NCBI GenBank assembly: GCA_965261545.1
Contig: CBDHDF010000010.1
Coordinates: forward strand, 640,001 to 704,000
Reading direction: 5' to 3'
Source: Bdellovibrionales bacterium
GTDB lineage: Bacteria; Bdellovibrionota; Bdellovibrionia; Bdellovibrionales; UBA1609
DNA length: 64,000 nt
Shown here: positions 18,001 through 24,000 of the stretch, in pieces
Numbering within the stretch: position 1 is the first letter of the stretch
Layout of the letters: each line of letters begins with the position of its first letter
Made by a program: the position numbers

Positions 18001-21000
18001 TGCTATCCTGTGACGTGGCCCATTGGCATGGGAGGACGCTTTGTGGGCCTCTATCATCGTCTCAAAAAGCAATTAATCCTTTACACCCGTGGAGAGGAGA
18101 GTCCTCAGGTTGTGCCTGTAGATGGCTGGAAAGATAAAAAAATCATGGACTTTTTGGAAAATGACCTCGCGAGTCAGCTTCAAGAAGACATGGCCCTCCT
18201 TGAAGGTGTTTTAGGGGATTGGAGTAAGGAGGACTTTCTTTGTGGGCAAATCAGTCCCATGACCTTTGGCAGTGCCAAGTTCAGCTGGGGCGTTGATTTA
18301 TTCTTGGAATTATTTGCTCAATATGCTCCTCCCCCCAGCCCTCGCAAGGCTTCCCTCCAGAGAGGGGCGGGGGCTGGAGTTGGAACTGGAAAAATAGGCT
18401 CACCCAGAGGAGTGGATCGAGAAGACATTCAAGTCGACCCATTTGATAAAAGGTTTTCAGGTTTTGTTTTTAAGATCCAGGCCAATATGGACCCAAAGCA
18501 CCGAGATCGAGTTGCCTTTGTCAGGGTTTGCTCTGGGCAATTTGAAAGAGGGATGAAGGTCAAGCACGTGCGCCTCGGGCGTGAACTGCGTCTCTCCTAT
18601 GCCAACCAATTTATGGCTCAAGACCGAGAGACCGTCAATGAGGCTTATGCCGGTGATATTGTGGGCATTATTGACACAGGCTATTTTCAAATTGGTGATA
18701 CGATCACTTCGGGACACTCCCTTTCTTTTGGTGAAATGCCTCGGTTTTCACCAGAGGTTTTTGCCAAACTTCATATTAAGGACCCTTTAAAAAGAAAACA
18801 ATTGGAGAAGGCTTCCCTGCAATTGGCTGAAGAGGGAATGATCCAACTCTTTTATGATTCCGCTTTGGGACGTCAGGACCCTATCCTAGGAGTGGTTGGT
18901 GAGCTTCAGCTGGATGTTCTTTTGCACCGGCTCAATGGTGAGTACAAACTCAATGTCAAATTGGAGAGACAGGTCTACTCTGTGGCTAGATGGGTGACTT
19001 GCAAAGAAAGTCACCAGGAAACTCACAAAGAGAATCACAAGAATCACAAGAATCACAAGAATCACAAGAAAAATAATCAAAGAGTGATCTCCTCTATTCA
19101 AGGAGGAACTCGCCTTCACCATGATATTCACCAAAACCCTGTGGTTCTCCTTGAAAGAGAGTGGGATTTAAAATGGTTATCTAAGGAAAACCCCAACCTA
19201 GATTTTCATTTTACGGCCAAGTCATTCTGACTTAGCACTATTCGGTATTGATTTTATTCCAAAAAAAATGCATAATTTTTACTTATGAAAAAATCCCTCC
19301 CTCCTCTTTGCTTAACCCTTGATAACACTTTTAAAGCATTTTTTAAGCATGACCAGGACTTACTCAAGCCTTTGTTGCAGGATTTTCTTCCTTTGCCACC
19401 CGGTTGTCGGGTGGAACATGTTCAGTTGTTAGATGCCGAGGAAAACTCTTCAGAGGCAAGCAAGCCTTCGGGAAAGACCTTCATCTTGGATATGAAAATT
19501 CGTATTTCTCGCCGATTGTCCAGTGGAGAGTGGGTTGAAAATGAGACTGTGAATGTGGAGATGCAAACCGTCTCCCAAAAAAACTTCACAAATCGCCTTC
19601 TTGCCTATGCTGGACGGGTCTACTCCAATCAAGTGAAAGAAGGAGAAAAGTACGAGAAATTAAGAACTGTTTACTCCCTTGTTTTCAGTACTGTGGACCT
19701 TCCTGAACTACGCACGGACAACAATTATTACCATACATGTAGCATGAGGCAGGATAGACGCCCTCATTTAAGGCTTACCGAGGGCATTCAGTTTGTCATT
19801 GTAGAATTGAACAAATTCATTGGCAGTTTAGACAGCCTTGTTGACCAGCGTGAAGCGTGGTGCTATTTCTTAAAAAAATCGGATGAGTTGGATCAACAAA
19901 CAGGCCAAAAGCTAGCCAAAAAAGGAAGGGATATGGGAAGAGCCGTTAAAAATTTGTGGAATTTGTCTCAAGACGAACTCATGCGAGAGCGCCTTGAATC
20001 TGAAGATAAACAGCGTCGGGATCGTTTGGCACAGATCGACACAGCCCATGAAGAAGGGCTTGAAAAAGGGCTTGAAAAAGGGCTTGAAAAAGGGCGTGAA
20101 CAGGGACGTGAAGAGGGGCGTGAACAGGGACGTGAACAGGGGCGTGAACAGGGGCGTGAACAGGGGCGAAGGGAAGAAAGAGAGACTTTTGTTTTAAAGT
20201 TACTTTCAGAAGGTATAGAAATTTCTGTTATAACTACAGTGACAAAGTTTTCTGAAGCTGAAATCAAGGCTCTCCAAAAAAGTAAAAATTTTAACAAAAT
20301 GACACCTACTTGATGGATTTTCCTAAGCCCACTCAAGCAGCCCGGAGGGGCAGTATGTCGCCTCCATCAAATTCCCATTTTTACCTTTGCCAACAAGATG
20401 GATCGTGAGGGCCGTGAACCCATAGAAATCATTGATGGATGTGGAAAACACACTCGGAATGAGATGCTCTATCCTGTGACGGGGCCCATTGGCATTGGTG
20501 ATACGATCACTTCGAGACACTCCCTTTACTTTTGGTGAAATGCCTCGGTTTTCACCAGAGGTTTTTGCCAAACTTCAAAACCTGTGGTTCTCCTTGAAAA
20601 GTGGTTCTCCTTTGAAAGAGAGTGGAATTTAAAATGGTTATCTAAGGAAAACCCCAACCTAGATTTTCATTTTACGGCCAAGTCATTCTGACTTAGCACT
20701 ATTCGGTTGTGTCTCGATGTCTCGATTTAGTATATTGACAAAACAAAATTTAAAAATGAAAATGTAAGTATGTCGTATTGCAGCCTCTCTCTTAAACACA
20801 AGGCCAAATACAAAGTCAGTGAAGAAGGCTTTACACTTACTGCTGCGCTCATGTCTGTGGCTATCGTGGGTAGGTATGTCTGCCATGATAAGCATGCTTA
20901 CGTTTCAACATAAAGAACTTCAATCCATCAAAGAGCAACTTGTCAGTGCCAATATAAAACAATTTATCCTACAAACCGTAAGAGATCTCGAAAATTGCGA

Positions 21001-24000
21001 TTGTCACTTCAAACCAAGCTCCTACGCCACACTCCGCAATGTCAATGGCAAGCTTCGCGATGCGAACGGCATTGACTTAGGCCCCTTCACCATTGATACA
21101 ACGGCTGCGACCATTGGAGACATCAACCTCGGAAGTTTTCGTTCGGGAGGATGTCCTTTCACTTCGACCAGCAATACCATTGTCAAGACAGGTCAACTCA
21201 TCAAAGGCGTAGGGCAATTGAAAACAAAATCTGTCACGGCGAAAAATATTGTACCGATAGTCAACAGAAATGGAGAGTATACGGCCGAACTCACAGTTGA
21301 TTTTGAGAGTTCCCACCGGGCTCTCCGTCCCGCCATTGTCGATATTATTCTTTCGGTGGATGCTAGCATAGACCCAAAAGCCGCCACTATTAGCCATTGC
21401 GGACCAAAAGTTGCTTCGGCGAAGGCAGCTCCAGAAGGGGCCATCTACATCAGTATGGGATCACAAACCAATCGTCTGGAGAATGCAGGTCCTATATATC
21501 AGAGTTCATATGGTGTAGAGGGCTTGCGTATAGAAAATTCAAAAACGACAATAAACCAAAAGATCTCCTGCTACAAAGGAACCAATCTTTGGTGTGCAGG
21601 GGATCATGGGCTCACTCAAGCAAGTCAATGTGATTTGACTTACACAGGCATACACGTCTCATGCCCCTCCGGTTATGTCGTGTACGAGGCAAAGATATAT
21701 AATGGTGGTGGTGGTGGTGGTGTTCCTCCCCAGCTCTACAATACCACACCCTCTGGAGCTCGGTCTGTGCATTGCGATGTTCATCGTTTCAAGGGATCTT
21801 CTAATTCCAATGTCTCCTGCTGGAGTTCTTCCATAAAGAACTCCTACACGACTCCGAGGAATTGCAAGAAAGCAGAAAAAACAGAAGCCGCCCTCTACTG
21901 CCCCAAAAGATCTGTTACTCCTACTGAGCCATATTTGTATAATTTTGTGTTCTTCAAGGACATCTCAACAGCATTTCCTAACACATACTGCCAAGTCATG
22001 TGCATTCCAGCAAAGTAAGCTCTATTACTCTATCCCCTTCCCCTGGACTTTCGACTTTCATCAACGAGATGAGTCGCAATGGTACTGAACCACTTGGCGA
22101 GCCACATCCATGGAGGCTTTTTGAAAAGCTTCTTCTGTAAAGGCTCCCATATGAGGGCTCAGCAAGAGACGAGGCTGTTGTAGGAGGGGAGAGTTCTGGG
22201 CCAAAGGTTCTTTGCGATAGACATCAAGTCCAGCCCCCGCAAGACGCTGAGAGCTTAAAAAATCAACAAGATCATTCTCATTGATAACCTCTCCCCTAGA
22301 AGTATTCACCAAAATACAGGATTCACTCAACAAAGACATGGACTGATGATTCAACATATTTCTAGTCTCATCGGTCAAGGGAACGTGAAGGGTCAAAATT
22401 TCACACTGCTTAAGAAGCTCTGAAAAACCCACGGGCACAACTCCGTGCTTTGCAAAGTGCCCATGGTCCACATAGGGATCATAGGCCATGCTCCTGGCTC
22501 CAAAGGCTTGCACCAGTTGAGCGACCCTTGTCCCAATGCGACCGAGGCCCACAATGCCAACAAGCTGACCCTGAAGCTCCCCACCGCGACTTAATAGCGA
22601 CCTCCTCCACTGGCCTGAACGGAGAGAAGCATCAGCCTCTTTGAAGTTTCTCAACAAACTTAAAATAAGCAAAAGGGTATGCTCCGCAACGCTTTGAGTA
22701 TTGGCTTCCGCAGCATTAAACACTTGAATTCCCCTTTCCTTACACAACGAAAGGTCAATATGATTCAAGCCACTGGTGGCCGTTCCCACCACTTTTAACT
22801 GAGGAGCCATATTCAAAAGACGATCGTCCACAAGGGTATGACTTCGGGTTAAAAGCACATGGGTGCCCAAAAGGTCTTCCCTCCCTGGTTGCAACTCCCT
22901 TGTGGAACTCAACTTGGCTGAAAGTTGGACCTTGAGAAATCCCTGAGCCTCAATACTATAAGAATCTGTAAGGGTGACCTGAACCATAACTCCTCTCTTA
23001 ACCTCTTAAGTCTCTTAATCCTCTTAAGTCTTATCCCTTAAATATTGGGCAAACTCAATTGTTGCAACTGGTCCTGGGCCTTGCTGACAACTTCATTCAC
23101 TTGCCCCTCACTCAATTTCCACCCCATAACTCGAAGGCTCTGCCCTAAGCCTTGAAGGGTCGCCACAAGATCGTCATCTCTTATAAATCCCAAGTGTCCA
23201 ATGCGAAGAATCTTTCCCTCCAAAGACTCCTGCCCCCCCGCCACATAAATGTTGCCATCCTGAAGAATCCGTCGCTGAAGCTCTCGCCCATCCATTCCAT
23301 GGGGAACTTTAATCGCTGTGACAGAGGGACTTGGAGATTGAGAAAAAAGCTCAAGCCCCCACTCCTTCACCGCCCACTGGGTCACTTGAGACAAATTCTT
23401 GCACCTTTGCCAACTCACTCGCTCTCCGCAGTGATTGAGCTGATTGAGCCTATTCAACACCCACCTCAAAGCTCGAATATGGGAGACTGGTGAACTAAAG
23501 CGAGTGTGCCCCTTTTTGTGAGCCTCAAGTTCCAACTTCAAGTCAAAGTAAAATCGAGGGCATTGAGCCACTTGATTGGCTTTCCATGCCCTTGGAGACA
23601 GGGATATAAAGCCCAACCCCGCCGGCAACATAAAAGCCTTCTGTGAAGAGGCCAATACCACATCCCAACCCCACTCATCCACCTTTAGTTCCATGGCTCC
23701 CATGGCCCCCATAGCATCCACCATGAAAAGAACTTTGGGGTGGCCACGGCGCAACCATCGAGACATGTCCTCCACGGGATTTTTAGTCCCTGTGCTGGTC
23801 TCACAGGCTTGCACCATCACCGCCTTTATCAAAGGAGACTGCCCCAACATATCTTCCATCCCCTGAAGAGGCAGGGGATGCCCTTCATCCACTCTAAAAA
23901 TATGAACCCTCAAGCCATAGGCTCTTGCCAACTGAGACCAACGACGACTGAATTTTCCACTCTCCATGACGAGAACTTCATCACCTGGAGAAAGAGTATT

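What a model noticed while it worked through the whole genome (the two positions that open the first line are those of the whole stretch)
20885..22018. Pilin-signal surface proteins with a hypermutated C-terminal tip, one next to an unclassified short reverse transcriptas [...]
g02484 and its twin g01069 (C5:21328-22566) lie in a 6.6-kb block that is otherwise almost identical, yet differ at 44 bases in the last 520 bp, nearly all non-synonymous at codon positions 1 and 2. A second pair (g03867/g02223) varies in the same part and is followed by a 286-aa reverse transcriptase (g03868) without the DGR signature. This is the footprint of DGR-type mutagenesis on type IV pilin-like proteins that are not targets of the known DGR of this genome.
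Evidence so far: Mismatches per 250 bp are 0-2 along the block and 8, 27, 9 over the tip; 32 non-synonymous against 1 synonymous codon change, 42 of 49 changes at positions 1-2, the strongest such ratio among all paralogue pairs tested, above the known DGR targets. Second pair: 23 of 29 mismatches involve A. Contigs of the sample's runs hold further variants of the tip. RT has YVDD and QGSSMS, meets no NCBIfam cut, 8 homologues. N-termini are homologous to the pilin triplets.
(Added by a program. Inside this text positions count along the whole contig: contig position 640,001 is position 1 of the stretch shown here. "Call 12" and the like, gene names such as g00115 and contig names such as C1 are that model's own, and its searches are not shown. 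The text may have been shortened before it was handed on; [...] marks where a part breaks off. The agent that wrote the report below was given it as the finding of a first reader that could run no searches.)

Follow-up and report, generated by a model that had tools for sequence, protein, structure and literature searches.

The report
Template-free retroelement diversifying adhesin tips
A bacterial pilus-tip gene whose binding end changes extremely fast belongs to a gene cassette with a little-studied reverse transcriptase, and relatives of that enzyme appear to scramble neighbouring adhesin genes without the separate template that known diversity generators need.

Summary
The window gene and its copy on C5 differ at 49 bases, 32 non-synonymous codons against 1 synonymous, the most extreme of 274 paralogue pairs. 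It is not a classical DGR target: no template repeat was found in the genome or run contigs, and 31 third-position adenines are untouched.

The reverse transcriptase beside the second pair falls in the UG4 radiation, known only as a neighbour of fimbrial genes. In 25 of 28 annotated relatives fetched (many clonal) it abuts an adhesin gene. Those adhesins mutate at all codon positions: four-fold sites saturate next to the RT and the divergence fades with distance. The four loci checked hold no template repeat. This points to a template-free, cumulative diversifier (about 75%).

The window gene keeps half of the RT-leader motif 15 bases after its stop, so it most likely comes from the same cassette but has lost its RT. 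Its own pattern differs: 0 of 53 four-fold sites changed, yet the spectrum is transversion-rich. Strong selection dominates; supply from the RT in trans is plausible but unproven.

The parts
20770..22018 (+). Minor/tip type IV pilin-like gene: prepilin signal and pilin-like N-terminal half, Cys-rich C-terminal tip; 412 aa in the intact C5 copy
   Evidence: N_methyl only below cut-off; Atlas clusters with N_methyl on 15-43% of members, commonest phylum Bdellovibrionota, weaker CofB-like hits
20827..20870 (+). Prepilin cleavage site (Gly then Phe) and hydrophobic helix start; 2 bases missing at 20869 shift the frame relative to C5
   Evidence: sequence, alignment; bases present in contigs of all four runs
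21515..21567 (+). Variable cluster 1: 8 substitutions, all non-synonymous; 8 third-position adenines unchanged
21695..21855 (+). Variable cluster 2: about 27-32 substitutions plus two in-frame indels
21932..21951 (+). Variable cluster 3: 9 substitutions in 7 codons; the last 21 codons after it are invariant
22034..22054 (+). Right half of the RT-leader element (pyrimidine arm plus 7-base box), shared with the leader of the RT remnant at C7:304557; left hairpin arm and RT gene absent
   Evidence: 3 hits in the genome for the strict pattern, 5 for the relaxed one, all at these two genes or RT leaders; 2 of 3000 shuffles and 0 of 3000 genomic windows score as well
18402..25052 (.). Block duplicated on C5 (relaxase- and integrase-bearing contig), with 8 coding substitutions outside the pilin gene (3 synonymous)
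19285..20313 (+). Rpn-type PD-(D/E)XK nuclease gene upstream; multi-copy, also near other pilin/RT remnants; role unclear

Best explanation
The window gene is a pilus tip adhesin of a probably Bdellovibrionota bacterium, from a cassette family 'adhesin + structured spacer + UG4-like RT'. In intact cassettes the RT copies RNA of the neighbouring adhesin gene itself with many errors at all four bases; the cDNA replaces the gene segment, one end fixed beside the RT gene and the other variable. With no protected template, changes accumulate round after round, giving a saturated tip and a gradient fading away from the RT. Shown: adjacency, gradient, synonymous saturation, absence of a template repeat in the loci checked. 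Inferred: that the RT causes it, the RNA template, and the integration step. The window copy has lost its RT and keeps half the leader. Its 49 differences from the C5 copy were fixed mainly by strong diversifying selection after duplication, on a transversion-rich supply most likely from low-level action of the RT in trans (inferred, about 40-45% for this last step alone).
For: RT family: best PADLOC model RT_UG4, E 3e-32; groups with UG4-type rows apart from DGR and group II rows at SH-aLRT 95. Adjacency: 25 of 28 fetched annotated loci have an adhesin or usher-operon gene abutting the RT. Local neutral hypermutation: two invasin copies on one plasmid differ at 0 of 240 four-fold sites in the body, then 7/21, 14/19 and up to 5/6 in the tip, last ~15 codons nearly conserved; L057/L074 tip 7/11, 6/7, 7/9, 8/9; L081/L082 have 7 differences in the 1404 bases before the adhesin start, then four-fold 4/10, 4/6, 8/9, 8/15, 8/18, 5/21, 0/13, 1/14, while the ORF on the other side of the RT differs at 1 base. 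Near-identical plasmids: 12 of 12 substitutions in 12.9 kb lie in the adhesin (L066/L067), and all 3 variable sites among six goat plasmids, one with three alleles. No adenine-biased repeat in L055-L057, L059. In this genome: second pair has the same shape, 3 of 14 four-fold sites changed, a third allele from another assembly has a conserved body and unalignable tip; RT remnants lie beside other pilin paralogues. Window link: leader motif; transitions 11 of 27 against 180 of 246 in other paralogues, p=0.0014; rate about 55 times flank dS, lower bound 19.
Against: The window pair lacks the UG4 signature: 0 of 53 four-fold sites differ, against 3 of 14 in the second pair (p=0.008) and 24 of 60 in UG4 gradient zones (p=2e-8). 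No RT is in cis and half the leader is gone. Multi-base codon changes are not in excess (6 of 22 vs 41 of 262, p=0.23). Three of six near-identical UG4 sets were uninformative (0, 0 and 1 substitution, the last outside the adhesin with a frameshifted RT) and L069/L070 had only 1 of 6 in the adhesin. No RT-less control adhesin was available: all 5 plasmids with this invasin carry the RT. These operons are mosaic (chaperone 19/98 four-fold differences in L081/L082), so recombination occurs. The C11 RT scores far lower on the UG4 model than core members (110 vs 431-452 bits) and sits in a separate subclade. Gradient polarity relative to the target mRNA is opposite in fimbrial and pilin/invasin loci, which one simple model does not explain. 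The motif was found post hoc.
Confidence: 0.5

Rival explanations
1. For the window pair the RT is irrelevant: after duplication on a mobile element, ordinary point mutations in a prey- or host-binding tip were fixed by very strong diversifying selection. The leader motif is a relic.
For: 0 of 53 four-fold sites and 1 of about 97 synonymous sites differ; no RT in cis; only two alleles in the runs; the window allele is shifted towards hydrophobic residues at variable sites, which explains the T excess.
Against: Needs dN/dS near 55 over a whole 146-codon domain (lower bound 19) and a transversion-rich spectrum unlike other paralogues (p=0.0014).
Confidence: 0.3
2. A classical DGR with a template repeat missing from the assembly mutates these tips.
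For: Positions 1-2 bias (42 of 49); third-position A is scarce in cluster 2; the genome has a complete DGR with remote targets and is 96.8% complete.
Against: No template by an A-tolerant scan with working positive control nor among run contigs at 80% likeness; 13 four-fold adenines unchanged, expected probability 7e-8 for one continuous template; three non-homologous clusters over 437 bases; A in 20 of 49 differences.
Confidence: 0.07
3. Two old alleles kept by balancing selection, with recombination or gene conversion homogenising everything between the selected codons (C5 possibly another strain).
For: Equal depth of both alleles; within clusters only 21 four-fold sites exist, so dS up to about 14% is not excluded; the assembly is heavily rearranged.
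Against: C5 has plasmid/ICE genes and IS-cut block ends; old alleles should differ at linked synonymous sites, and 0 of 53 do.
Confidence: 0.1
4. At UG4 loci in general the variation comes from recombination with divergent adhesin alleles plus selection; the RT has another role (not exclusive of the rivals above).
For: Adhesin tips are commonly variable (own knowledge); operons are mosaic; no RT-less control; no activity assay.
Against: Gradients of four-fold divergence anchored at the RT in three gene arrangements; four-fold GC falls from about 87% in invasin bodies to 58-64% in tips; a three-allele site among clonal plasmids.
Confidence: 0.2

Closest known systems
Diversity-generating retroelements (Bordetella BPP-1 type; the C4 element of this genome)
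   Same: RT-linked diversification of a ligand-binding end of a surface protein; sharp boundary and conserved terminal codons with a diffuse other boundary (PMC5758913, passages); hairpins after the target stop.
   Different: No template repeat, no Avd gene, RT outside the DGR clade, all bases and codon positions change, changes accumulate over 0.5-3 kb with indels.
UG4 reverse transcriptases (UG/Abi class 2)
   Same: Best HMM and tree placement; stand-alone RT beside pilus/adhesin genes; described as fimbria-associated, not defence-enriched, often on plasmids (PMC9226505 and PMC8934634, passages).
   Different: Separate short subclade (275-286 aa) beside type IV pilin-like genes; those papers assign no tested function and the passages read mention no hypervariability.
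Type IV minor/tip pilins such as CofB and TcpB; shufflon PilV (recalled)
   Same: Prepilin signal, pilin-like N-terminal half, C-terminal presumed adhesin part (Atlas features 0.80-0.82, leads only).
   Different: Tip fold unresolved; variation is by substitution, not by inversion of cassettes.

Membership tests
DGR | Template repeat differing from the target only at adenines | tested here: not met
   (control finds the C4 template in 4 of 4 windows); none seen among contigs of four runs
DGR | Adenine-specific mutagenesis | tested here: not met
   window pair 20 of 49 involve A with 31 third-position As unchanged; second pair A-biased (23 of 29) but not exclusive; UG4 tips gain A at four-fold sites
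DGR | RT of the DGR clade | tested here: not met
   C11 RT outside the DGR group, which is one side of a branch at 99-100
DGR | Avd-like accessory gene beside the RT | tested here: not met
   no such ORF beside the C11 or C10 RT; present beside the C4 RT
DGR | IMH / IMH* pair | tested here: inconclusive
   terminal codons are conserved, but without a template no IMH* can be defined
UG4 RT | Best match to the UG4 profile | tested here: met
   RT_UG4 first of 53 families, 110 bits, next 92; weak compared with core members
UG4 RT | Phylogenetic placement within UG4 | tested here: inconclusive
   one branch (95) joins it with core UG4 and UG18-like rows, but in its own subclade (99); quick tree, only DGR and group II outgroups
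UG4 RT | Stand-alone RT next to pilus/fimbrial genes | tested here: met
   137 bases after a pilin-like gene; type IV-like rather than chaperone-usher
UG4 RT | Reverse transcriptase activity | not testable with these tools
   catalytic motifs intact in the C11 copy; C10 copy split by IS elements
Type IV pilin | Class III signal: Gly, Phe, hydrophobic helix, usually Glu at +5 | tested here: inconclusive
   Gly-Phe and helix present, +5 is Ala; N_methyl 12.4 bits, cut-off 21.2
Type IV pilin | Pilin fold | tested here: inconclusive
   long N-terminal helix plus beta-sheet at pLDDT 50-78; pilins only at Z 3.0-3.3 among unrelated rows

The most novel reading that the evidence does not exclude
UG4-type RTs are a second class of diversity-generating retroelement that needs no template repeat: they cumulatively rewrite the receptor-binding part of an adjacent adhesin (fimbrial tips, invasins, type IV tip pilins, possibly Lcl_C proteins) at all bases, and can also reach orphan targets such as the window gene in trans through a short leader motif.
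Probability: 0.4. Interest if true: 0.95.

Novelty: categorically new. Interest (0 to 1): 0.8.

Why it matters
It would give a function to an RT family described as fimbria-associated but unexplained, and add a mode of targeted hypermutation that template-repeat searches cannot detect. It would explain unalignable adhesin tips on enterobacterial plasmids and in this probable predator, and offers a one-gene, direct test. The core claim (cis hypermutation without a template repeat) stands at about 75%; the window gene's own dependence on it is less certain.

Tried and rejected
Template-repeat searches in the assembly and run contigs: none found; one chance hit in 87 windows. Antisense (T-specific) template: none, and 17 four-fold Ts are unchanged. 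Outside alleles of the window gene: only this genome's own proteins; 4 of 108 family genomes have weak N-terminal matches only. Close RT relatives not found in 60 related genomes, in two genome-contig scans (0 and 2 weak loci) or viral contigs. No RNA holder listed. Structure: single-sequence model pLDDT 32; alignment model 45 with the tip under 50; fold searches and PDB sequence search gave nothing clear; Atlas blank for the tip. Rfam: nothing in the C11 or C7 leaders. First tree held four mis-framed rows and was replaced by a 36-row tree (29 rows fewer). The RT row of the L081/L082 codon comparison was out of frame and is ignored. An RT-like stretch after the C10:958924 pilin was first read as captured cDNA; more simply it is a deletion scar. 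Literature: eight full-text searches found no paper giving UG4 a diversifying function; the library lacks most subscription journals, and supplements were not read.
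Full report
Verdict. The variation is real and extreme. It is not classical DGR mutagenesis. The window gene belongs to that cassette family by descent, but its own differences look selection-dominated.

Observation. The window is C10:640001-704000 of an 11-contig, 4.3-Mb genome. Window 18402-25052 matches C5:19013-25600 at 98.1%. The pilin-like gene starts at 20770; relative to the intact 412-aa C5 copy two bases are missing at 20869, which contigs of all four runs carry. 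Two paralogues are also frameshifted at homopolymers, so small indels in this assembly are doubtful. The copies differ in 33 codons (32 non-synonymous, 1 synonymous; positions 21/21/7), all in 21515-21951. This is the top score of 274 paralogue pairs. Coding flanks hold 8 substitutions, 3 synonymous, giving dS 0.26% and a tip rate about 55 times higher, lower bound 19. The runs (one sample, contigs only) show two alleles near 1:1 and no third. C5 encodes a relaxase and an integrase, so it is probably a mobile-element copy.

Test of the DGR reading. The genome's DGR is on C4: RT, Avd, a 128-base template, and four VRs compared here, in which 13-21 of 33 template adenines are changed; only 1 of the 33 is at a third position. 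For the window tip an adenine-tolerant scan found no template, while it found the C4 template in 4 of 4 control windows. Under a template model every adenine shared by both copies is a mutable template adenine, yet 31 third-position and 13 four-fold adenines are unchanged (expected probability 7e-8 for a continuous template). A is involved in 20 of 49 differences against 82 of 125 between known VRs (tallied). Cluster 2 alone is poor in third-position A, so a small residual probability remains.

The second pair and the RT. C11:1008640-1009656 and its C10 copy are nearly identical for 207 codons, diverge from codon 208, become unalignable with different lengths, and meet again in the last dozen codons and the spacer. 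The tips are 53-57% GC in a 41-42% genome. A protein from another assembly, on a contig of the same length as a 96%-identical RT, has the same body and a third unalignable tip. The spacer holds two hairpins (z -2.1); a relative's spacer folds at z -5.9. RT remnants lie after the C10:958924 pilin, fused to a pilin fragment at C7:108300, and at C7:304591 and C2:273420, so pilin-RT linkage is ancestral here. The RT's best PADLOC model is UG4; it groups with UG4-type rows apart from DGR and group II rows, in its own subclade. PMC9226505 and PMC8934634 (passages) describe UG4 as fimbria-associated, not defence-enriched, with no tested function.

What UG4 relatives show. Of 48 plasmid records matching a Salmonella UG4 RT and related searches I fetched 28 regions; 25 have an adhesin or usher-operon gene abutting the RT, 3 do not or were not checked (L058, L077, L086). 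Many are clonal; there are four arrangements. The genes after the RT in usher operons carry signal peptides but no Pfam match, so 'adhesin' is inferred there. Two invasin copies on one plasmid differ at 0 of 240 four-fold sites in the body and saturate in the tip. L057/L074 repeat this. In L081/L082 the 1404 bases before the adhesin start differ at 7 places, and four-fold divergence peaks at 8/9 near the RT and falls to 0/13 and 1/14, while the ORF on the RT's other side differs at one base. Among six near-identical sets, 12 of 12 substitutions (L066/L067) and 3 of 3 variable sites (six goat plasmids, one site with three alleles) fall in the adhesin; L069/L070 gave 1 of 6; two sets were identical and one had a single change elsewhere with a frameshifted RT. 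Early changes lean towards A (35 of 46 with the second pair) but tips are not A-depleted. No adenine-biased repeat was found in the four loci checked. Missing: an RT-less control; and these operons do recombine.

Link to the window gene. Fifteen bases after its stop lies a two-part motif that occurs three times in the genome: here, in the C5 copy, and in the leader of the C7 RT remnant; a relaxed pattern adds only the two other RT leaders. It is matched by 2 of 3000 shuffles and 0 of 3000 genomic windows, though found post hoc. The left hairpin arm and the RT are gone. The window pair differs from UG4-adjacent tips in having 0 of 53 four-fold changes (p=0.008 against the second pair), but differs from ordinary paralogues in its transversion excess (11 transitions of 27 against 180 of 246, p=0.0014; multi-base codons not in excess). 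A low-rate, flat-spectrum supply filtered by strong selection fits both facts; pure selection is the main rival.

Mechanism. Most likely the RT copies RNA spanning the adhesin's binding part with errors, and the cDNA replaces the gene with one end fixed beside the RT gene. Adjacency, gradients and lack of a template are shown; RT causation, template strand and integration are inferred. The polarity relative to the target mRNA differs between arrangements and is unexplained.

Novelty. It works like a DGR but fails four defining tests. Eight searches found no report of this function in the held library; PMC5758913 was read in passages for DGR features; other papers were seen as listings only. 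The host phylum rests on Atlas cluster taxa. Interest 0.8.

Noticed in passing
window 20353-20707: Three short pieces of the upstream prfC-like gene are repeated in order after the Rpn gene (matching 17890-18032, 18691-18773, 19141-19246 at 95-98%). Similar concatenated scars occur elsewhere (C7:108290-108450: pilin piece, RT piece, Rpn end).
   Followed up: partly
whole genome G000: 43% of 25-mers occur at least twice and 33% at least five times: a very large IS expansion that interrupts most pilin and RT copies.
   Followed up: no
C11:1008103-1008269 and 1010783-1010949: The pilin-RT cassette is flanked by a 167-base direct repeat (97.6%), hinting at mobility of the cassette.
   Followed up: no
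C4:57213-60573 and C4:1-7300: Complete classical DGR with at least five related VRs on C2, C4, C7 and C11, and a partial second copy at the start of C4; the C2 VR has several non-adenine changes.
   Followed up: partly
L012:4429-5487, L014:2630-3529: RTs of the same subclade lie tail-to-tail with Lcl_C (DUF1566) genes, a fold recalled as a DGR target, with no template repeat seen.
   Followed up: partly
window 21328-22000: One contig of run X2 skips the whole tip (673 bases, depth 3, noisy contig).
   Followed up: no
C2:491071-494541, 610620-615656; C11:811587-813941: Another paralogue family has non-synonymous-rich C-terminal windows (41:7 and 56:14).
   Followed up: no
L071:8530-8695: A 167-base degraded copy of part of the UG4 RT gene lies just past the downstream adhesin; L056 has a similar RT 3' fragment after its second invasin.
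   Followed up: no
L058:5626-9225: A UG18/UG4-like RT on a Legionella plasmid lies tail-to-tail with an annotated SidC gene.
   Followed up: no
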